IMG/VR virus record: IMGVR_UViG_3300046007_011426
Location: 1 to 57,079 of that record
Length of the DNA: 57,079 nt
Reading direction: 5' to 3' (one strand)
Source of the DNA: a virus
Taxonomy: Duplodnaviria > Caudoviricetes
The position numbers and the translations under genes were made by a program. This document shows, in pieces, positions 6,188 to 45,212 of the stretch (position 1 is its first letter; each line of letters opens with the position of its first letter). The notes below the pieces were generated by a model. That model was given only the letters and a program-made list of their open reading frames with translations. It did no database searches and was not told where the DNA came from.

Positions 6188-7285
6188 ATGACTAACCAAA
6201 GTCCAAGAATTTACGTATACAAAATTACCTTTGAAGAGAACTCTTATTATTACTATGGGGTTCATAAGGAAGATGTTTTTGATGAGTACTACATGGGTTC
6301 ACCTAAAACTCATAAGTGGGCTTGGGAATTTTATACCCCACAGAAAACAATCCTTCAAGTATTTCCTTACACTGATGAAGGATGGTTACAAGCAAATAAT
6401 ATTGAAGATAGATTGATTAAACCAGTTTATAATATTGATAAATGGTGTCTTAATGAGAGTTGTGGAGCATTTATTTCTTTAGATGCTTGTAAAAGAGGAG
6501 GACAAAAAACTGGAAAAAAACATAAAGAAAATAATACTGGTATTTTTAATCTTACTCCAAAAGAACGAACCCAAGCTAGTAAAAAAGGAGGCAATTCTTG
6601 TAAAGAGCGGGGAGTAGGTTTTTTTAGTCTTACAACAGAACAAAGAATTGAAAATGGAAAAGTTGGTGGTAATATAGCAAAAGAAAATAATCTAGGTGTA
6701 TGTGGACTTTCTTTTGATGAATTATCTGCTGCTGGCAAAAAGGGTGGAAAAATAGCAAAAGAAAATAAACTAGGTATACATAGGTTATCTCCTGAAGAAA
6801 AATCAAAAAATGGAAAATTGGGGGGAAACGCCGCGAAAGAAAATAAAGTTGGGGTTCACAGTCTTTCTCATGAGGAATTATCTGCTGCTGGCAAAAAGGG
6901 TGGAAAAATAGCAAGAGATATGAAATTAGGCATTCACACTCAAACTTACGAACAAAGACAAGAAAACGGCAGAAGAGCTGGAAGATATATTGTGGAAAAT
7001 AAAATAGGAGTTCACAGTCGCTCAAAGGAGCAAATGAGTGAAGATGGGAGAAAAGGGGGTATTACTCAAGGAAATAGACATAAGGAAAATAAGACGGGTG
7101 TTTGCGGTCGCTCAAAAGAAAAAATGACAGAAGATGGGAGAAAAGGGGGAAAACTAGGTTCTAAGAATACAAATTCACAAAGATACCAATGCACAAAAAC
7201 TGGATATGTTTCAACGCCTGCTGGTCTTTCCGCCTACCAAAAAGCCAGAGGCATCGACACATCAAACAGAATCCGCCTTCAATAA
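6188..7285 (+). CDS. Free-standing GIY-YIG-like (Seg-type) homing endonuclease with tandem KGG-containing repeats
   Basis: IYVYKITF..YYYGVH..YMGS..IEDRLI..CLNE N-terminal domain, then eight 26-30 aa basic repeats. Confidence 0.7.
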   Translation: MTNQSPRIYVYKITFEENSYYYYGVHKEDVFDEYYMGSPKTHKWAWEFYTPQKTILQVFPYTDEGWLQANNIEDRLIKPVYNIDKWCLNESCGAFISLDACKRGGQKTGKKHKENNTGIFNLTPKERTQASKKGGNSCKERGVGFFSLTTEQRIENGKVGGNIAKENNLGVCGLSFDELSAAGKKGGKIAKENKLGIHRLSPEEKSKNGKLGGNAAKENKVGVHSLSHEELSAAGKKGGKIARDMKLGIHTQTYEQRQENGRRAGRYIVENKIGVHSRSKEQMSEDGRKGGITQGNRHKENKTGVCGRSKEKMTEDGRKGGKLGSKNTNSQRYQCTKTGYVSTPAGLSAYQKARGIDTSNRIRLQ

Positions 7286-39200: not shown

Positions 39201-40410
39201 TGTAATCAATAATACTGGATTTGGTGTAACTGTTGTTCCTTCAATTTCTATAATTTCTCCGGTTGGCGGTGGGGTGGCCGGTATTGCCTCTATGGGTATA
39301 GGTAGAGTCAATGTTGTGGGTTTTGGTTCTGGATACAATTTACCACCAACGGTCACTGTAACCCTGGTTGGCTCATCGGGTGCCGGTGCATCGGTTGTGG
39401 CGGGTCTAGGAGTGACCTCATCGAATATTACGATTACTAACCCAGGATACGGCTATTCCTCAATCCCAACCGTTACTGTCTCTAGTCCAACTCCCGTTTC
39501 AATTGCTTCTTCAATCATTGCTGGGGTTGGTATAACCGGAATTGTTGTAAATAATTCTGGAATCGGATATAGCGGCTCCACTCCGACTATTAATATAACC
39601 TCTCGGGGAAATAATTTTGGTAGCGGGGCCGTTGCAATTGCGTCTAGTCTAATAGTAACCAATGTTTATATTACAAATCCTGGTTCTGGATATACCGCCT
39701 CTGATCTGGCTTCTTTGCCAATCGCCACCTTTAGTCCGACTGGTACGGCTGCTACTGTTGGTTTTGGTGTTAGTACTATTCTTTTGACAAATCTTGGTGT
39801 TGGTTATACGAGTGCTGTTGCTGCGGCAGTCTCATTCAGTGCCCCAAATATTTCTACCGGAACTACGGCAACCGCAACTGCCTCTTTAGGCTTCCCAGGT
39901 ATTCTCCCTGGACCGGGAGTCAACACAACAGGACAGACCAGAATTTATTATGTTGCTTCTGTTTCTCCAAATAGTATTGGAATATCAACCGGAGTCGGAA
40001 TTGGAACCCTTACTGCAATTGATGTTGGAGACGACGTTTTTACTTCAGAACCCCCTATTGCAAGTATTGGCGGTACAGTTACCAATGTTCTTGTGGTTTC
40101 TCCGGGTTCTGGATATACCTCAACAAGCGTCTTGACCGCATCTTCTTTTGATGGGGCCAATACTGGAACCGGATTCTCCTTTAGGTCATCAACGGTTGTA
40201 AATAATTACCAATTCTCCGATGTAATGATTCTCCAATCGGTCGGAAGTGCCTCGACTTCTTGTGACTTTATGGAATATGGAACTATTGCAAATGATGATA
40301 TTATTGGCTCATTTAATGCCGACATAAGTGGCCCTAATGCCAGATTATTATTTACTCCTACTTATAGAAATAATATCATAAAAATCTCTTCACAATCCAT
40401 AACTAATTGA
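36298..40410 (+). CDS. Tail fibre protein with GIGTTxP and GxGY beta-repeats
   Basis: SGRVKK..RYEFLGLDQAEPDLGDP; many TNPGSGY units; Gly/Thr/Val-rich. Confidence 0.8.
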   Translation: MSKLVSGRVKKLPQSGITSDRYEFLGLDQAEPDLGDPVVGPSSIGVNPYTGNISETYVLISDSQGDGNRYWAPQPNVISGGIVNPGSITVRDSGVIVGSVNQITDINFVGSGVTVTSPASWVGSGSSSVDITVAVIDVEVPSGKTGSIGYRDGNSLLQGADDFIYNPVNKNVGIGSTTPKVKLDVLGDANISGILTVNQLKADSAEITNSLKVGNFEIVDNTTFIRIISGSVGVGTTNPIATLDVRGTVNVSGAATFANITAQDVNLDDLTANRITTGYIFSTSGFIGILTSNTINSGNLISTSISATNSSITNLTSVAATVTNFIGTSVTVTGNLQVNNNTLFANSSTTNVGFGTTNPVQKVQVGPSTNPVVITDSSRIGIGTTNPDYNLDVRGNVGFSSFIFINGSSGLANQVLVSGGTGLPFWGAPENITVGAAVSVSIASTQQNDIFYPTFTRQTVNNAIIRVDSTGLVFNPALNYLGIGTTAPTSNLDVVGDIKTNSLSIGIGTTVVNASSNVVSTATTATAVLSSLNTGVFRSARYNVQITCNGQLVANNSSASVSNLQGGSNYLFGIYPNVLLTTSSGSGSDARADIQVTPEKVLPIDSISSGSFNVQDTIGVNVNAPVSFNRLIPATPRENSRVTSITVVNSGAGYTALPSIQIAAPTNNPPILGVTGSGTTATAVVDSLFVSDVSITTPGIHTTIPTVSFKTPVGAGASATGLVGVGVSRVTVTNSGFGYNIFPTVNAESLEAPLEFASLGISTVFLTNFYVQNTGLGYTSSNFPILTIGSPEVGVNTATAVVNSLGVSIHFTITPGLGYTTPPTLTASSPNVGVNTATLTATLGISSITITSPGAGYTSSSQIQISSSPTVTGFAATVGLGVTLTDAIISGGVNYATLPTVTFSAPNVSSGTTATGGFTQLQGDTGVLGGFQITNPGSGYFSIPTVTVSGGGGTGAGVTITTMRVANVVINNTGFGVTVVPSISIISPVGGGVAGIASMGIGRVNVVGFGSGYNLPPTVTVTLVGSSGAGASVVAGLGVTSSNITITNPGYGYSSIPTVTVSSPTPVSIASSIIAGVGITGIVVNNSGIGYSGSTPTINITSRGNNFGSGAVAIASSLIVTNVYITNPGSGYTASDLASLPIATFSPTGTAATVGFGVSTILLTNLGVGYTSAVAAAVSFSAPNISTGTTATATASLGFPGILPGPGVNTTGQTRIYYVASVSPNSIGISTGVGIGTLTAIDVGDDVFTSEPPIASIGGTVTNVLVVSPGSGYTSTSVLTASSFDGANTGTGFSFRSSTVVNNYQFSDVMILQSVGSASTSCDFMEYGTIANDDIIGSFNADISGPNARLLFTPTYRNNIIKISSQSITN

Positions 40411-40411
40411 T

Positions 40412-41785
40412 ATGTCAGTTTTTAGGGTAGGAAATAAATCAACTACATCTAGATTTCAACCAAATAGTGGTTCACCCGTAAGGGGCTCGGTTAAAAATAT
40501 TGTAAATTCTAATTTACAATTAGATTTCCCAAAGGTACTACCCTCACTAGACTTAGACTTTGTTAATTCTAATGTTCTAGATCAGAGAGTCGATTTTACA
40601 AGGGCTTCTGGTGGGTCTTATGTTGGTCCAGATGGTCTTATTAAGTATGTGGGAATCAATCAACCTCGCTTTGATTATGATCCAGAAACTGGGGAATGCT
40701 TAGGATTGTTGATGGAAGAAGCAAGAACTAATTTAATTAATCAAAGTGAAAATTTTAACACCTGGACTCTCCATAGTGATACTGATGAACCCCCAACAAT
40801 AACCAGAAAATTATCCGATGTTAAATCACCCGATGGGGCGAGTAATTATTTTTTATGTACTTATGGGCGAACGGATTTGCGTCGAAGTTTTACTGGAGGT
40901 TTTGGTAGAACATATACTGCAAGTTGTTTTTTTAAACAGCCATTTGATGGAAATGCTTCCGATCTGGCCGCATTTGAAATACACATTACTGGAGGAGGTA
41001 CTACTGTTGCTGTTGGTAAAGTAATCTACAGGTTTTCTACCAATAGAATTATTCGCTCAGACAGATTTGGTATAGGCGTTCCGCCAATAAGAACCGGCTT
41101 TAAAAAGTATGCTGATGGCTCAGTAAGGCTTTGGTTAACCATGACTGATAATGGGTCTGGGCAGGCAGTATTTTTTCTTAATTTAAGGGTCGAAGGTTTT
41201 TTTCAAAATATAGGCAAATCAATTTTAACCTGGGGAGCCCAAATAGAAGAAGGAAACTTTCCAACGTCTTATATTCCAACCAGAGGCTCTGCCAGAACCA
41301 GGGCCGCCGATAATTTTCAAATAATTGGCAAGAATTTTGATAGCTGGTTTAGGAAAGATGAGGGGACAATATTTGTTGCACATAAGGCCCTGACACAATT
41401 AAATTTTAGAGGTTCTTCGGTAAACTCTATAATATACAGCATAGATCCAGGTACTAATACTTTAGGTATTTTTTATAATACTCATTCGGATAACAATGAT
41501 ATATTCTTTTTTGGTTCATTGGGTGGTTCTATAATTAGATTTGAGCAACCCCAGCCATCAAGAAGAAAAGCAATTTTTTCTTATAATGGTCCAAAAGAAC
41601 AATATCAACCATATGTTGATGGGGTAAAAATCACCACAGTAACAGATAAAAATCCATATATAGAATTACCTTATGATAGATTAATTTTGGCCAGACCAGG
41701 AGAAAAATTCAATGGCCATTATCAAAGATTTACGTACTATCCTAAGTCCTTACCTGATTCTCAATTACAATTTTTAACACTATGA
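40412..41785 (+). CDS. Putative lectin-like (ConA/LamG-type) fibre-tip protein A
   Basis: PSLDLDF..FTRASGGSYVG..PRFD.DPETGE.LGLL.E..R.N; WGAQIEEG.FPTSYIPT; YYP..LPD. Confidence 0.6.
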   Translation: MSVFRVGNKSTTSRFQPNSGSPVRGSVKNIVNSNLQLDFPKVLPSLDLDFVNSNVLDQRVDFTRASGGSYVGPDGLIKYVGINQPRFDYDPETGECLGLLMEEARTNLINQSENFNTWTLHSDTDEPPTITRKLSDVKSPDGASNYFLCTYGRTDLRRSFTGGFGRTYTASCFFKQPFDGNASDLAAFEIHITGGGTTVAVGKVIYRFSTNRIIRSDRFGIGVPPIRTGFKKYADGSVRLWLTMTDNGSGQAVFFLNLRVEGFFQNIGKSILTWGAQIEEGNFPTSYIPTRGSARTRAADNFQIIGKNFDSWFRKDEGTIFVAHKALTQLNFRGSSVNSIIYSIDPGTNTLGIFYNTHSDNNDIFFFGSLGGSIIRFEQPQPSRRKAIFSYNGPKEQYQPYVDGVKITTVTDKNPYIELPYDRLILARPGEKFNGHYQRFTYYPKSLPDSQLQFLTL

Positions 41786-42102
41786 CTTATACTGATTACT
41801 TTCTAAAATTCGCCTCTAAACAACAAGCCCTCCAAGTTTTTTCCACAATTTCAGATCATATTAGTCTAGAAAATGAAATAATCGATCAAACCGAACATTT
41901 TGCCATTGATGAAGTTGGTATTCTCTATGAAGACGATGCGGTTTATGATGATTATGGTAATCTAATTACTCCACCTACTAAAATTGATGGGTATCATTAT
42001 AATTATAGAACTCTTTATGGTAACAAACCAGAGATTCCTCTCCCGGTTGAATTAGAACCTTATTTGGTACACCCAGAACCACCACAAAGAACATTCTTTT
42101 GA
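41782..42102 (+). CDS. Hypothetical protein (fibre-associated); stop codon supplied by the IS end
   Basis: ATGA coupling to the preceding gene; ends PQRTFF*. Confidence 0.7.
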   Translation: MTYTDYFLKFASKQQALQVFSTISDHISLENEIIDQTEHFAIDEVGILYEDDAVYDDYGNLITPPTKIDGYHYNYRTLYGNKPEIPLPVELEPYLVHPEPPQRTFF

Positions 42103-42240
42103 ACTACTGTGAAGCTAAAGACTTCGCAGTTTCAGCATTCATAGACTCTTCTATTGAAGACGCCTCCTGCTGTTTTTGTTTAGAGTCCGATTGCGTTCCA
42201 CAACCAGACAGAATATTCAATCCTTGAATTAAAATGTTTT
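42079..42240 (-). ncRNA. Putative omegaRNA/reRNA overlapping the tnpB 3' end, with guide AAGAATGTTCTTTGTGGTGG
   Basis: Hairpin ACTGCGAAG/CTTCACAGT (42106-42130) and upstream TGAA able to pair with terminal TTCA; 5' boundary is a guess. Confidence 0.6.
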
Positions 42241-43312
42241 TTGCCGCATTAGTGTCTCTGTCGTGAACTGTTCCACAAGAAGGACAAGTCCATTCCCGAA
42301 CATTTAGAGGCATAGAATCCATTAAATGACTACAAAAACTACAAGTTTTACTGGAAGGATAGAACCTATCTATCACAACAAGTTCTCTTGAGTTCCATTT
42401 GCACTTATAAGTAAGCATAGAGACCAATGTTCCCCAAGAAACATCATTAATTGCTTGTGCCAATTTATGATTTTTAACCATTCCTTTTACATTCAGGTTC
42501 TCAATACAAATAACTTGGTTTTCGTTAATGAGTTGAGAAGTAATTTGATGTAAGTAGTCTAGTCTTTGGTTAGTTACTTTTTCATACTGAATTGCTAGTT
42601 TGTTTCTCCATTTTTCTCTTGTTTTGGTTTCCTTTTTCTTTTTAGAATGTTGTCTCTGAATGTATTTGATTCTCTTCAGTCTTCGCTTTAGAAATCTCTT
42701 GTTTGGGAAGACCTCACCATTAGAAGTAATTACTAAATCCTTAATTCCTAAATCTATTCCAATACAATCTTCAACTTGTGGTTTTGGTTGAATATCAAAT
42801 TCTCCCTGAACCGAGGCATAATATTTCCCAGAAGGAGTTTTAGAAATTGTTACAGAATTAATTTTAATCAACTCTCCTTTATAATTTCCTTTGAATTTAA
42901 ATGGTTTTTTAAATTTAGGAATAGTAACCAGATTGTTTTCCCAATCAACATCAAAATGTTGAGGCACTCTAAAGGAATACCTAGATTTTCTTTTAGACTT
43001 AAATTTAGGAAACTTTGCTAACTTTCTAAAAAATCTATCATAAGCACCATCTAAATCTTTAATAGATGCCTGAAGGGTTTGAGAATTAACTTCTTTTAAC
43101 CATTCGGTTTCAGTTTCTTGTTTTAAATTTACAAGAAGTTTAGATGCGTCAATATAAGAAAGTTTATTTTTTCCTTGATGATAATTTTCATTAAATATGT
43201 TCAAAAAGTGATTATAAACCCACCGTCTACAACCAAAATGCTTTTCAAGCAGAACAACATCTTGTTGGTTATTTGGATAGATTCTAAGTTTAACTGCTTT
43301 TTGGACCAACAT
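42104..43312 (-). CDS. tnpB: TnpB RNA-guided endonuclease
   Basis: N-terminal HTH (LRIYPN..FGCRRWVYN); RuvC-I GIDLG, RuvC-II IENL, zinc finger CSFC/CPSC, RuvC-III DRDTNAA. Confidence 0.95.
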   Translation of the reverse strand: MLVQKAVKLRIYPNNQQDVVLLEKHFGCRRWVYNHFLNIFNENYHQGKNKLSYIDASKLLVNLKQETETEWLKEVNSQTLQASIKDLDGAYDRFFRKLAKFPKFKSKRKSRYSFRVPQHFDVDWENNLVTIPKFKKPFKFKGNYKGELIKINSVTISKTPSGKYYASVQGEFDIQPKPQVEDCIGIDLGIKDLVITSNGEVFPNKRFLKRRLKRIKYIQRQHSKKKKETKTREKWRNKLAIQYEKVTNQRLDYLHQITSQLINENQVICIENLNVKGMVKNHKLAQAINDVSWGTLVSMLTYKCKWNSRELVVIDRFYPSSKTCSFCSHLMDSMPLNVREWTCPSCGTVHDRDTNAAKNILIQGLNILSGCGTQSDSKQKQQEASSIEESMNAETAKSLASQ

Positions 43313-43332
43313 TTAATTTAATTGCCTAATAT

Positions 43333-43339
43333 TATTTAG
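43333..43339 (-). promoter_or_regulatory. Late promoter driving tnpB
   Basis: CTAAATA on the minus strand, 20 nt before the ATG. Confidence 0.6.
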
Positions 43340-43402
43340 CAAATTGAATACCTTGAGATAAATAAAATATCATTAATCTAAATATTTTAAGATTTTATTC
43401 TT

Positions 43403-43409
43403 CTAAATA
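43403..43409 (+). promoter_or_regulatory. Late promoter
   Basis: CTAAATA about 20 nt before the ATG at 43429. Confidence 0.65.
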
Positions 43410-43428
43410 ACTAATAAAACATAAAAAC

Positions 43429-43836
43429 ATGGCAAGTCTAATTGGCCCAGACCCAAATCAGTTAAGCACTAACGGGATGTTAGGGGAACTTGCATTCATG
43501 AACTCTTCTGGAATTACTGTCCAGTCAGTTCAGTCTCCAGTAGGTATTGCGAGTACAGTTGGGCCAGATAATTTCCCGACTTCTGGTACTGTTAATAATT
43601 TTACAAATCTTGCATTACAACCAAATACCGGAAATGTTATTGTTGGTTCTGGGTCTTCTTTAGGGACAACCGCAACTAATGGATTTTTATGTATCCCTAC
43701 TTGTTCTGGTCCTCCTACAGGAATTCCAACCGGGATTCCACTTGGGGCAGTTCCTTTAATTTATGATACAACAAATAATAGACTTTACATGAGAACTCCA
43801 GGGGGTACTTGGAGATATTCGATAACTACTACCTGA
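43429..43836 (+). CDS. Short fibre-like protein
   Basis: LIGPDPNQLSTNGMLGELAF; TTATNGFLCIPTCSGPPTG..YDTTNNRLY. Confidence 0.7.
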   Translation: MASLIGPDPNQLSTNGMLGELAFMNSSGITVQSVQSPVGIASTVGPDNFPTSGTVNNFTNLALQPNTGNVIVGSGSSLGTTATNGFLCIPTCSGPPTGIPTGIPLGAVPLIYDTTNNRLYMRTPGGTWRYSITTT

Positions 43837-43838
43837 TT

Positions 43839-45116
43839 ATGAGTGTCGATCAATTTCTTCTTTCCAGTGATACAACTGATTTAAATTATCCAGAGATTAG
43901 GCCAACTCTGGATCTAAATTTTGCAAGAACAAAAACATTAGATCCAAGAATTACTTTTACTAGAGCCAGTGGTGGATCTTATGTCGGGGCCGATGGTTTT
44001 ATTAAGTATGCTGGTGTTAATGAGCCCAGATTTGACCATGATCCAGAAACGGGTGAAAGTTTAGGGTTACTTATTGAAAATAATAGGTCTAATGCGATTT
44101 TATGGAGTAGTAACTTTGAAAATTCATATTGGCTAAAACAAGAATTAACAGTTGTTCCAAATGCAACAATTGCACCTGATGGATCTATGACTGGCCAGTT
44201 CATTGCTCCAACCAGGACATTTAGCACACATGCTTTTCGTAAACCTGGAACTACTGGGTCCTTACGTTGGGTATCAATGTATGTTAAGTATGCTGGGTGG
44301 AGATACATTACAATTCTTAGTGATAATCCAGTAGGCGTCGGAGTCTATGATTTATTAACTGGTAGAGGTAATATTAGTTCATCAATTAGTATAAGACCTG
44401 CTGGTAATGGGTGGTTTCGTATTACAAGAAGAAATAACACAACTTCAAATATAGTGATCGCATTTACTGATACATTTTCTTCTAATTACAATGACCAAAA
44501 TAGTGGGGCTACTCCTGGATGGCAGGGAAAACCAACTACTGGAGACGGTATATCTGGTATATATGCCTGGGGATTTCAAGAGGAAGAAAGTGGAAGTTTT
44601 TTTACTTCATATATTCCAACACAGGGTTCGGCCAGAACTAGAACTAATGATGTTGCAACAATAAGCGATAGTAATTTTAGTAGCTGGTACAATCAAAATG
44701 GTGGTACGATATTATGTGAGGCGAATGGCACTGGATCCGTTTTTGAAGACTATAAGTTTTATTGGGAATTAAATTCAAATTCTAATAATTTTAGAATTGG
44801 GTGTAATTATAATAACTCGGATTCCGCAAGATTAGAAATCATAAATAATGGAATTACACAAGCGACATTAAGAGCATTTGGAACAAGTCACACTGAAGAT
44901 GGGGCAAAGTTTGCTTCTATTTTTTCAAATAAGTATTTTAGGCTATCCGTAGATGGGACCTATCCACTATCCAGTAATTCTGGTGCTCTACCTGACGTTA
45001 ATAGACTACTCTTAGGGAGACCTCAATCTGGCGATTATTTAAATGGAACCATATCTCGTCTCACATATTACCCACAAATTCTTCCAGACACCCAAACCCA
45101 GGCCCTCACCCGCTAG
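43839..45116 (+). CDS. Putative lectin-like fibre-tip protein B (paralogue of 40412-41785)
   Basis: PTLDLNF..FTRASGGSYVG..PRFDHDPETGESLGLL; TSYIPT; YYPQILPD. ATG at 43839 preferred over 43809. Confidence 0.6.
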   Translation: MSVDQFLLSSDTTDLNYPEIRPTLDLNFARTKTLDPRITFTRASGGSYVGADGFIKYAGVNEPRFDHDPETGESLGLLIENNRSNAILWSSNFENSYWLKQELTVVPNATIAPDGSMTGQFIAPTRTFSTHAFRKPGTTGSLRWVSMYVKYAGWRYITILSDNPVGVGVYDLLTGRGNISSSISIRPAGNGWFRITRRNNTTSNIVIAFTDTFSSNYNDQNSGATPGWQGKPTTGDGISGIYAWGFQEEESGSFFTSYIPTQGSARTRTNDVATISDSNFSSWYNQNGGTILCEANGTGSVFEDYKFYWELNSNSNNFRIGCNYNNSDSARLEIINNGITQATLRAFGTSHTEDGAKFASIFSNKYFRLSVDGTYPLSSNSGALPDVNRLLLGRPQSGDYLNGTISRLTYYPQILPDTQTQALTR

Positions 45117-45118
45117 AC

Positions 45119-45147
45119 AATATACAACCTAAATCCAAATTTGTCAA
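45119..45147 (-). promoter_or_regulatory. Antisense sigma70-like promoter
   Basis: TTGACA-N17-TATATT on the minus strand. Confidence 0.5.
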
Positions 45148-45154
45148 GTGCCTT

Positions 45155-45212
45155 GTGACAATTTCAACATTGACATATACCCCCTTGACTTTTTTGGCAT
45201 CTGCCCTAGGAT
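45155..45212 (+). promoter_or_regulatory. Degenerate palindromic element with TTGACT-N16-TAGGAT
   Basis: GTGACAATT-TCAA-CATTGACAT; same 39-nt spacing to the -10. Confidence 0.45.

What the first reader, a model, noticed from the sequence alone, without database searches (positions are those of the whole stretch)
42099..43345. Transposase-less, catalytically intact TnpB wired to a phage late promoter
Seen: all three RuvC acidic residues and the zinc finger are intact, no tnpA lies in the window, CTAAATA sits 20 nt upstream, and the insertion is intergenic with its end supplying the neighbour's stop codon. Known: TnpB uses a right-end omegaRNA to cut empty alleles. Inference: it behaves as an RNA-guided homing endonuclease or competition weapon in mixed infections, timed like T4 late homing genes.
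Basis: partly seen in the sequence, partly recalled or inferred. Interest (0 to 1): 0.7.

Follow-up and report, generated by a model that had tools for sequence, protein, structure and literature searches.

The report
Phage TnpB nuclease with late promoter
A freshwater T4-like cyanophage carries the stripped-down remains of a jumping gene that keeps an intact RNA-guided DNA cutter, its guide RNA and a phage-style late promoter, so it probably spreads or persists by cutting rival phage genomes that lack it.

Summary
Window 42104-43312 (-) encodes a 402-aa TnpB with the RuvC triad (D187, E271, D353) and a CxxC...CxxC zinc finger. A 110-nt omegaRNA with strong covariation ends at 42100. The element's end motif TTCAA supplies the TGA stop of the neighbouring ORF. 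CTAAATA lies 20 nt before the start codon.

- The element is a deletion derivative. It keeps 13 nt of the tnpA 5' end (43362-43374) and has no left end. A 91%-identical relative in a related phage contig (L039) still has tnpA and the left-end hairpin.
- CTAAATA is carried inside the element, because the tnpA-tnpB spacer is conserved in L039. It is also this phage's commonest upstream 7-mer (7 of 60 genes; 0.74 expected). Sister copies in other phage contigs carry TATAAATA at the same place. None of 54 bacterial relatives has either motif.
- The inferred target motif TTTAT and end motif TTCAY match the published ISGst2 TnpB system. An element-free relative (L120) has TTTAT followed by a 15-of-17 match to the guide.

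Late-timed, RNA-guided homing or retention against element-free co-infecting phages is the best reading, but it is untested. I class it as a new variant of a known kind, of moderate interest.

The parts
42104..43312 (-). tnpB coding sequence, 402 aa including the TAG stop at 42104-42106. RuvC residues D187/E271/D353; zinc finger C324, C327, C343, C346.
42100..42209 (-). omegaRNA scaffold of 110 nt (three stem regions; conserved single-stranded CUCUAAACAAAAAC). It overlaps the last 35 codons of tnpB and ends in the element's terminal motif.
   Evidence: 33 pairs, 19 with compensatory changes. 97% of cells paired against 76.5% in shuffles. The covariance model scores 123.1 bits here; the next best place in the window scores 14.4.
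42099..42103 (-). Transposon-end motif TTCAA (relatives have TTCAT or TTCAC). Its complement forms the TGA stop (42100-42102) of the neighbouring ORF.
   Evidence: Compare the ISGst2 end motif TTCAC in PMC10055086. Whether the end is 4 or 5 nt long is inferred.
42079..42098 (-). Predicted guide portion of the omegaRNA: 16-20 nt read from the flank (AAGAATGTTCTTTGTGGTGG), antisense to the last codons of ORF 41782..42102.
   Evidence: Position follows from the right-end boundary. Homologous sites in element-free relatives match 15 of 17. Guide length is inferred from the 16-nt guide of ISDra2 (PMC8612924).
41782..42102 (+). Neighbouring phage ORF, 106 aa (phrog_18574, function unknown). It converges on tnpB, and its stop codon is supplied by the element's end.
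43333..43339 (-). CTAAATA, a T4-late-type promoter-like box 20 nt upstream of the tnpB ATG and inside the element. The predicted transcription start is near 43327.
   Evidence: The position rule (-12 to -6) comes from PMC1524935.
43322..43342 (-). Imperfect hairpin TTGCTAAATAATATTAGGCAA that holds the CTAAATA box. Relatives L002 and L009 have a hairpin around TATAAATA at the same place.
   Evidence: Read from the sequence. Not tested further.
43362..43374 (+). Remnant of the tnpA 5' end, 13 nt. ATG is now ATA and the fifth codon is TAA. Similarity to the intact element stops at 43374.
   Evidence: L039 tnpA, Y1_Tnp 1.5e-33. In one search, relatives in X14 and X18 run on into tnpA after 43374.
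43375..43428 (+). Phage intergenic DNA with two CTAAATA boxes (43378-43384 and 43403-43409) ahead of the next gene. ATTCTTCTAAATA (43397-43409) repeats the ATTCTT that flanks the right end at 42093-42098.
43429..43836 (+). Downstream phage gene, 135 aa, no family match. It lies next to the 106-aa ORF in 5 of 5 element-free relatives.

Best explanation
Window 42099/42100-43374 is the surviving part of an IS605-type insertion sequence in a T4-like cyanomyovirus related to Synechococcus phages B3 and B23. It was originally tnpA and tnpB transcribed divergently. A deletion removed the left end and all but 13 nt of tnpA. What remains is tnpB, the tnpA-tnpB spacer and the right end with its omegaRNA.

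The spacer carries a T4-late-type promoter box, CTAAATA, which is this phage's own upstream consensus. I therefore infer that tnpB is transcribed late by the phage's late machinery. No separate promoter precedes the omegaRNA here, so the RNA would be cut out of the 3' part of the same transcript.

The TnpB-omegaRNA complex would recognise the motif TTTAT followed by AAGAATGTTCTTTGTG.... That is the sequence of the same site in a genome without the element. In a mixed infection it would cut such genomes. Repair by recombination from the element-bearing genome would copy the element in (homing) or reduce the rival's markers.

Without a left end the element can no longer transpose, so this is its only remaining route of spread.

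Shown: the anatomy, the relatives, the motif statistics and the selection on tnpB. Inferred: late transcription, the target motif, cleavage and homing.
For: Identity and integrity. dN/dS is 0.098 against L039 (235 codons) and 0.078 against L003 (206 codons). The omegaRNA overlap has only 6 of 105 nt differences, against 16% overall.

omegaRNA: 19 of 33 pairs have compensatory changes. 97.0% of cells are paired against 76.5% in shuffles, 0 of 500 shuffles reach the observed value, and slid controls give 28-42%. The model hits the window once, at 123 bits. It also hits the tnpB 3' end in 25 of 37 bacterial relatives searched.

Deletion derivative: L039 has tnpA (Y1_Tnp 1.5e-33), a left-end hairpin with the same sequence as the right-end hairpin and a conserved spacer. 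Relatives in X14 and X18 continue into tnpA after 43374.

Phage setting: the window has gp32-like, gp5-like and RNA ligase genes. Its closest SSB is that of phages B3 and B23, at 61% identity. The flank ORF of L039 hits only B3 and B23 (2 records, 54.5%).

Promoter: CTAAATA is the top 7-mer in the 50-nt upstream windows (7 of 60 genes, gaps of 19-31 nt, 0 of 2000 shuffles). TATAAATA is upstream of 0 of 60 genes. All 5 other full-length phage copies have TATAAATA 20-32 nt before the ATG. In their loci TATAAATA also precedes other genes: 4 of 13 genes in L019 and 3 of 13 in L007, each count including tnpB. None of 54 distinct bacterial relatives has either motif within 50 nt upstream. No sigma-70-like site lies on the tnpB strand upstream.

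Target and end motifs: left-end flanks read TTTAT in 6 of 6 mini-elements, in L039 and in L019 and L007. L028 and the inverted mini-element upstream of tnpB in L009 read ATTAT. Ends read TTCAY. This equals the ISGst2 target motif TTTAT and end motif TTCAC (PMC10055086). The element-free relative L120 has TTTAT immediately followed by a 15-of-17 match to the guide.

TnpB homing is established in bacteria (PMC10055086 passages). TnpB processing of its own mRNA into omegaRNA is reported in PMC10278001 (abstract start only).
Against: - No transcription start and no strand-resolved RNA are available. The only RNA data are two short contigs inside tnpB in one metatranscriptome, and these could be DNA carry-over.
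- No element-free allele with a perfect target was found. The 20-mer has 0 hits in viral contigs, and the 4 runs laid show no joint.
- The three nearest element-free relatives each have 2 mismatches in 17. Only one has TTTAT; the others have TTTAG or ATTAG.
- The promoter contrast rests on one or two evolutionary events. The tree shows two phage clades, and a single origin is not excluded (quick tree).
- Bacterial relatives have near-motifs (cATAAAa after TTTACAAAAA) at the same place. In L007, L019 and L028 the box sits 16 nt after TTTACA, so it also reads as a sigma-70 promoter.
- The window's end motif is TTCAA, where all relatives have TTCAT or TTCAC.
- Purifying selection may date from before the deletion.
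Confidence: 0.55

Rival explanations
1. Inert remnant. The element is a decaying insertion sequence that lost tnpA and its left end. It is carried passively by the phage. tnpB and the omegaRNA are intact only because the deletion is recent, and the CTAAATA box has no consequence.
For: The left end and tnpA are gone. No element-free allele or target was found. The end motif is atypical, TTCAA. The low dN/dS is measured against relatives and may reflect selection before the deletion. TnpB genes are common passengers in phages: 593 of 50,697 records have a match.
Against: The ORF is full length, with all catalytic and zinc residues. The omegaRNA scores as high as those of the relatives. The same arrangement is found at 100% identity in a second sample's contigs, X5. 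The insertion preserved the neighbour's exact C-terminus and stop codon. Phage genomes are under pressure to lose useless DNA (general knowledge, not tested here).
Confidence: 0.27
2. Active nuclease, but not late-timed. tnpB is transcribed by host RNA polymerase from an ordinary -10-like box in the spacer or by read-through. On this reading the CTAAATA/TATAAATA boxes are the family's ordinary promoter, which only happens to resemble a T4 late promoter.
For: L007, L019 and L028 have TTTACA, a 16-nt spacer, then TATAAA. Bacterial relatives keep TTTACAAAAA followed by an ATAAAA-like box at the same place. TATAAATA contains a near-consensus -10 element.
Against: In the window the scan finds no sigma-70-like site on the minus strand upstream of tnpB. 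CTAAAT is a poor -10 element (my reading). The box variant matches the resident phage's own consensus: CTAAATA here and in L039, TATAAATA in the others. None of 54 bacterial copies has the exact motif.
Confidence: 0.13
3. Domesticated for another job. The guide is used to regulate or cut something other than the element-free allele, for example as a repressor in the manner of nuclease-dead TnpB relatives, or against host DNA.
For: The guide is antisense to the 3' end of a conserved phage gene. Domesticated TnpB repressors exist (PMC10705468, abstract start only).
Against: The catalytic residues are intact, whereas the known repressors are nuclease-dead. The guide is simply the flank, as in every mobile copy. 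No other match to the guide was found in viral contigs.
Confidence: 0.05

Closest known systems
ISGst2 TnpB2 of Geobacillus stearothermophilus (IS605 family; Meers et al., preprint PMC10055086)
   Same: The same inferred target motif (TTTAT) and nearly the same end motif (TTCAC there; TTCAT, TTCAC or TTCAA here). The omegaRNA is at the right end, with the guide read from the flank. Protein-free mini-elements exist. There is a homing-type role by cutting the vacant site (for the paper; here).
   Different: This copy sits in a lytic T4-like phage and has lost tnpA and its left end. Its upstream box is of T4-late type rather than a host promoter. Sequence relatedness to ISGst2 was not measured here, because no ISGst2 sequence was in hand.
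ISDra2 TnpB of Deinococcus radiodurans (PDB 8h1j, 8bf8, 8exa)
   Same: Alignable over residues 2-365 (E 6.4e-63), with matching RuvC residues and zinc finger. It is an RNA-guided dsDNA nuclease whose guide follows the right end (PMC8612924).
   Different: Its target motif is TTGAT, against TTTAT inferred here. ISDra2 is a bacterial element with tnpA. The window's omegaRNA scaffold is compact (110 nt) and lies almost wholly inside the coding sequence.
Free-standing homing endonuclease genes of T-even phages (Seg, Mob; intronless homing and localized marker exclusion)
   Same: The proposed way of working: a nuclease gene between conserved phage genes cuts the co-infecting genome that lacks it and is copied in by recombination (PMC13565253 passages). 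The window also has a homing-endonuclease-like gene behind a CTAAATA box at 6188..7285.
   Different: Those enzymes recognise DNA through protein, whereas this one would use an RNA guide plus a 5-nt motif. The protein families are unrelated. Late timing of the T4 enzymes is recalled and was not checked here.
tnpB of cyanophage A-1(L) (bioRxiv 10.64898/2026.02.14.705889)
   Same: A tnpB carried by a cyanophage and strongly transcribed during infection (passages).
   Different: That copy is identical to five host copies in Anabaena, and the phage is a different kind. Here no close bacterial copy was found (best 42-52% identity), and the closest copies are in related phage contigs.

Membership tests
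IS200/IS605-family TnpB (RNA-guided nuclease) | Domain set: N-terminal HTH/WED region, OrfB_IS605 RuvC core, zinc-ribbon TNB domain | tested here: met
   Pfam PF12323, PF01385 and PF07282 are all above their cut-offs. Alignment to solved TnpB structures gives E 6.4e-63.
IS200/IS605-family TnpB (RNA-guided nuclease) | RuvC catalytic D-E-D triad | tested here: met
   D187/E271/D353 align with ISDra2 D191/E278/D361. They are invariant in 6 of 6 phage copies. D191 and E278 are confirmed catalytic in PMC8612924. D361 is recalled.
IS200/IS605-family TnpB (RNA-guided nuclease) | Structured omegaRNA overlapping the 3' end of tnpB and ending at the right end | tested here: met
   (covariation; 123 bits). 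The same model matches 25 of 37 bacterial relatives at the same place. No Rfam family matched.
IS200/IS605-family TnpB (RNA-guided nuclease) | RNA-guided cleavage of a target next to the target motif | not testable with these tools
   This needs a biochemical or interference assay.
Mobile IS605-type element (able to transpose) | Y1 transposase TnpA, in cis or in trans | tested here: not met
   No Y1_Tnp in the window at E <= 1, and only a 13-nt remnant. The contig is 23% complete, so a copy elsewhere in the genome is not excluded.
Mobile IS605-type element (able to transpose) | Left end with a subterminal hairpin like that of the right end, next to the target motif | tested here: not met
   The hairpin is present in L039 and in the mini-elements. 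It is absent from the window: similarity to the intact element stops at 43374, and the covariance model and hairpin occur only once, at the right end.
Mobile IS605-type element (able to transpose) | Right end with hairpin and terminal motif | tested here: met
   The terminal hairpin plus TTCAA is present. The fifth base differs from the TTCAY of all relatives.
T4-type late gene (late-sigma-dependent promoter) | TATAAATA-like box at about -13 to -6, with no -35 element | tested here: met
   CTAAATA lies 20 nt before the ATG. The same box with gaps of 19-31 nt stands before 6 other genes, mostly structural. CTAAATA was described as the late box of phage Aeh1 (PMC1524935).
T4-type late gene (late-sigma-dependent promoter) | Late transcription start and dependence on the phage late sigma factor | not testable with these tools
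   Only RNA contigs without strand or ends were available. I did not search for a gp55 homologue.
Homing endonuclease gene (functional class) | An element-free allele with an intact target exists in the population and is converted | tested here: inconclusive
   5 of 5 related phage loci are element-free at this site. Three have the target in register at 15 of 17, and one of those has TTTAT. No perfect target was found.

The most novel reading that the evidence does not exclude
A lineage of IS605 elements has become resident in large T4-like and jumbo phages as RNA-guided homing genes. On this reading:
- They carry their own late-sigma-type promoter, whose variant tracks the resident phage's consensus (CTAAATA here, TATAAATA elsewhere).
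- Their target motif TTTAT is the complement of the ATAAA core of late promoters. They therefore land at gene boundaries and late promoters, and a C at the first position (CTAAATA, complement TTTAG) removes the target motif.
- In some phages they have multiplied into omegaRNA-only mini-elements. That would give one TnpB a set of a dozen guides for excluding rivals' markers at many loci.
- The window's copy, which has no transposase and no left end, would then be a pure RNA-guided homing endonuclease gene.
Probability: 0.2. Interest if true: 0.8.

Novelty: new variant of a known kind. Interest (0 to 1): 0.55.

Why it matters
TnpB is the ancestor of Cas12, and its natural role was shown in bacteria as keeping transposons in place.

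Phages recombine heavily in mixed infections and already host protein-guided homing endonucleases. A transposase-less TnpB with its guide RNA and a phage late promoter would therefore be a natural case of RNA-guided homing, or rival exclusion, between viruses. That idea exists in a review table but, in the searches made here, has no worked example.

It also gives a concrete, testable system: a 402-aa nuclease, a 110-nt scaffold, a predicted target motif and a predicted target.

The link between the target motif and the late-promoter core suggests how such elements choose harmless sites in dense phage genomes.

Tried and rejected
- Near-identity DNA search of 40400-45200 against isolate phages found nothing. 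The best isolate-phage TnpB matches are 43% identical or less.
- Rfam gave only a chance lncRNA hit at E 0.3.
- I first read TTATC at 43357-43361 as the target motif and the left-end boundary. I rejected this once L039 showed that stretch to be the tnpA-tnpB spacer and the tnpA start.
- I first read the repeated AAGAAT/ATTCTT at both junctions as a target duplication. IS605 elements make none. It now looks like a pre-existing tandem pair of ATTCTTNTAAATA modules in the phage, with the element in the first copy. This is inferred and not settled.
- I looked for an element-free allele. The 20-mer scan of viral contigs gave 0 hits. Laying 4 runs gave no joint across the element. The absence of cover or joints there is not evidence of absence.
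- RNA run X20 gave two contigs at 100% identity inside tnpB only. There is no strand and there are no ends, and DNA carry-over is possible.
- The gp32 search found a T4-like marker in only 1 of 5 other records, so I do not claim that all carriers are T4-like.
- The careful tree did not finish in the time allowed. The quick tree was used.
- I did not search for gp55, did not fold the protein and did not run the large protein searches. They would not have changed the reading.
- Supplementary files of the papers were not seen. The promoter coordinate tables of PMC1524935 and the extended data of PMC10055086 may bear on the motif claims.
- The literature check for 'TnpB' plus 'late promoter' found 2 papers, neither about a TnpB behind a T4-type late promoter. 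The searches gave nothing closer.
Full report
WHAT IS THERE.
The window is a whole IMG/VR viral contig of 57,079 bases that CheckV rates 23% complete. It is a T4-like myovirus: it has a gp32-type SSB, a gp5-type baseplate hub, an RNA ligase and tail proteins. Its SSB is closest to those of Synechococcus phages B3 and B23, at 61% identity. Near-identical DNA occurs in many lake-water metagenomes.

ORF 42104..43312 on the minus strand encodes a 402-aa TnpB. It matches Pfam HTH_OrfB_IS605, OrfB_IS605 and Cas12f1-like TNB. It lies between two plus-strand phage genes, 41782..42102 (106 aa) and 43429..43836 (135 aa).

CHECK OF THE OBSERVATION.
In the alignment with ISDra2 TnpB (E 6.4e-63), window D187, E271 and D353 stand at D191, E278 and D361. 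D191 and E278 are the tested catalytic residues (PMC8612924 passages). D361 is recalled. C324/C327/C343/C346 form the zinc finger. All seven residues are invariant in six phage-borne full-length relatives.

No Y1 transposase is found in the window, and tnpB is present once. CTAAATA lies at 43339-43333 (minus strand), 20 nt before the ATG.

THE RIGHT END AND THE GUIDE RNA.
A 19-nt motif conserved between the window and two relatives recovered 25 stretches in viral contigs. One of them (L005) is unrelated. The rest, together with the window, give 20 distinct sequences that all end in ...GTAGTTCA and then diverge. Contigs from runs X14 and X18 add two more contexts that break at 42100.

I aligned 17 of the 20. 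I left out L010, which has a long insertion, and L011 and L024, which are near-copies of L012. The alignment folds into three stem regions with 33 pairs, 19 of which show compensatory changes. 97.0% of cells are paired against 76.5% in shuffles, 0 of 500 shuffles reach this, and sliding the partners drops pairing to 28-42%.

A covariance model finds one copy in the window, at 42209-42100 (123.1 bits; the next best is 14.4). It also finds the 3' end of tnpB in 25 of 37 bacterial relatives searched. This is therefore the omegaRNA of a widespread TnpB clade. It is not in Rfam.

The scaffold overlaps the last 35 codons of tnpB. That stretch differs from relative L003 at only 6 of 105 positions, against 16% overall.

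The complement of the end motif TTCAA contains the TGA at 42100-42102 that ends the neighbouring ORF. Element-free relatives end this ORF RTFF* or RTFL* with their own TAA.

A DELETION DERIVATIVE, NOT A SOLO INSERTION.
The genome-contig scan returned L039, a 2.3-kb contig binned in a bacterial MAG. Its TnpB is 91% identical over residues 1-235. Its other ORF matches only phages B3 and B23 (2 records, 54.5%), so I read L039 as a fragment of a related phage.

In L039, a Y1 transposase gene (Y1_Tnp, 1.5e-33) is transcribed divergently from tnpB. Beyond it lies a left-end hairpin with the same sequence as the right-end hairpin.

The 49-nt tnpA-tnpB spacer, including CTAAATA, is conserved with the window. 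The window then keeps 13 nt of tnpA (43362-43374; ATG changed to ATA, fifth codon TAA), after which the similarity stops. Relatives in runs X14 and X18 run on into tnpA at exactly that point.

The left end and tnpA are therefore deleted. PMC10055086 reports that excision fails when either end is scrambled, so this copy should no longer transpose even with TnpA supplied in trans.

THE PROMOTER.
CTAAATA is not over-represented in the window as a whole (13 found, 14.4 expected). However, 8 of the 13 lie in the 4.6% of the window that is intergenic.

It is the commonest 7-mer in the 50 nt upstream of genes: 7 of 60 genes, with gaps of 19-31 nt to the start codon. The expectation is 0.74, and 0 of 2000 shuffles reach 7. 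The genes concerned are mostly large structural genes. TATAAATA precedes none of the 60. CTAAATA was described as the late-promoter box of the T4-like phage Aeh1, from -12 (PMC1524935).

The copy before tnpB belongs to the element, not to the phage's original sequence. It points away from the neighbouring genes, it is conserved in L039, and the element-free sites have only 26-50 nt between the two phage genes.

The five other full-length phage-borne copies (L002, L009, L007, L019, L028; 51-62% identical) all carry TATAAATA 20-32 nt before the ATG. In their loci TATAAATA also precedes other genes (4 of 13 in L019 and 3 of 13 in L007, each including tnpB).

Among 54 distinct bacterial relatives, none has TATAAATA or [CT]TAAATA in the 50 nt upstream. 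Many of them show host-type boxes instead. No sigma-70-like site lies upstream of tnpB on its strand in the window.

Three cautions apply.
- The phage copies form two clades, and a single origin is not excluded (quick tree). The contrast therefore rests on one or two events.
- Bacterial relatives have a similar ATAAAA-like box at the same place.
- In L007, L019 and L028 the box follows TTTACA by 16 nt, so it could also serve host polymerase.

TARGET MOTIF AND TARGET.
Left-end flanks read TTTAT in 6 of 6 mini-elements of one phage, in L039 and in L019 and L007. L028 and the inverted mini-element upstream of tnpB in L009 read ATTAT. Ends read TTCAT or TTCAC. These equal the target motif TTTAT and end motif TTCAC reported for ISGst2 TnpB2 (PMC10055086).

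With a 5-nt end motif, the guide is AAGAATGTTCTTTGTGGTGG (42098 downwards). Five related phage loci are element-free at this spot. Three have the target in register at 15 of 17 matches. The five bases before it are TTTAT in L120, TTTAG in L121 and ATTAG in L119.

TTTAT is the complement of the ATAAA core of the late-promoter box, which here overlaps the ORF's stop codon. The CTAAATA form gives TTTAG instead.

HOW IT MOST LIKELY WORKS.
I infer the following sequence of events.
1. The phage's late transcription starts near 43327.
2. The transcript encodes TnpB and carries the omegaRNA at its 3' end. TnpB is reported to process its own mRNA into omegaRNA (PMC10278001, abstract start only).
3. The complex cuts genomes that have TTTAT followed by the guide match, meaning co-infecting relatives without the element.
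4. Recombination from the element-bearing genome repairs the break.

This is the 'non-restorative homing' listed as a concept in a 2026 review (PMC13565253). It works like the Seg and Mob genes of T-even phages.

In support, purifying selection on tnpB is strong (dN/dS 0.098 and 0.078), and the same arrangement occurs at 100% identity in another sample (X5). Against it, no perfect target, no transcription start and no cleavage have been shown.

I put the whole chain at about 0.55. The inert-remnant reading is at about 0.27.

COMPARISON AND NOVELTY.
The protein and RNA are members of the IS200/IS605 TnpB/omegaRNA family. As a transposon the element fails two defining tests, because it has no tnpA and no left end.

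TnpB genes in phages are common (593 of 50,697 records), and TnpB homing is established in bacteria. Three things appear new:
- a phage-resident lineage whose tnpB promoter box is of T4-late type and matches the resident phage's variant;
- a natural copy reduced to nuclease, guide and promoter;
- the tie between the target motif and the late-promoter core.

The searches found no paper describing this.

TOOLS.

Noticed in passing
Record of L009 (G001, a 244-kb viral contig rated 72% complete); loci L009, L011, L012, L014, L015, L016, L024: This phage contig holds 18 matches to the omegaRNA model (12 above 100 bits) and 7 full-length TnpB-like genes (35-61% identical to the window's). No Y1 transposase was found. 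Most omegaRNA copies sit in protein-free mini-elements of about 200 nt, made of a left-end hairpin plus the scaffold, each with a different flank and therefore a different guide.
   Followed up: partly
L011, L012, L014-L016, L024, L008, L021 and L036, just upstream of the scaffold start GTCTGG: In the mini-elements, an ATAAATA/TATAAATA/TTAAATA-like box lies 4-6 nt before the first base of the omegaRNA scaffold, as if the guide RNA had its own late-type (or -10) promoter. The window's copy has no such box there (it reads TTGAATATTCT).
   Followed up: no
window 6188..7285 (+): A 365-aa ORF with a weak match to a homing-endonuclease PHROG (phrog_314, 5.2e-07) lies 24 nt behind a CTAAATA box, right after the SSB gene. 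It is a second candidate mobile nuclease gene with the same promoter type.
   Followed up: no
window 42093-42098 and 43397-43409; also 43375-43384: ATTCTT flanks the right end, and ATTCTTCTAAATA stands on the other side of the element. A second TCTAAATA lies 3 nt from the tnpA remnant. This may be a pre-existing tandem repeat of the stop-codon/promoter module, but its origin is not settled.
   Followed up: partly
L003 621-629, L002 1428-1436, and the right-end flanks of L004, L008, L011 and L014: Other copies sit directly in front of phage genes. In L003 and L002 the last A of the end motif is the A of the next gene's ATG (in L003 a head-closure/neck gene). In others a ribosome-binding site and ATG follow within about 25-35 nt. 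The elements seem to land at gene boundaries without breaking genes.
   Followed up: no
window 40412..41785 and 43809..45116: Two paralogous tail-protein genes (both phrog_5939, about 1e-75) bracket the locus, and the same pair brackets the element-free site in L029. The element lies inside a tail-fibre-like module.
   Followed up: no
L039 (contig of a MAG labelled Ignavibacteria): This 2.3-kb contig looks like phage DNA binned into a bacterial genome. Its only other sizeable ORF matches only Synechococcus phages B3 and B23.
   Followed up: partly
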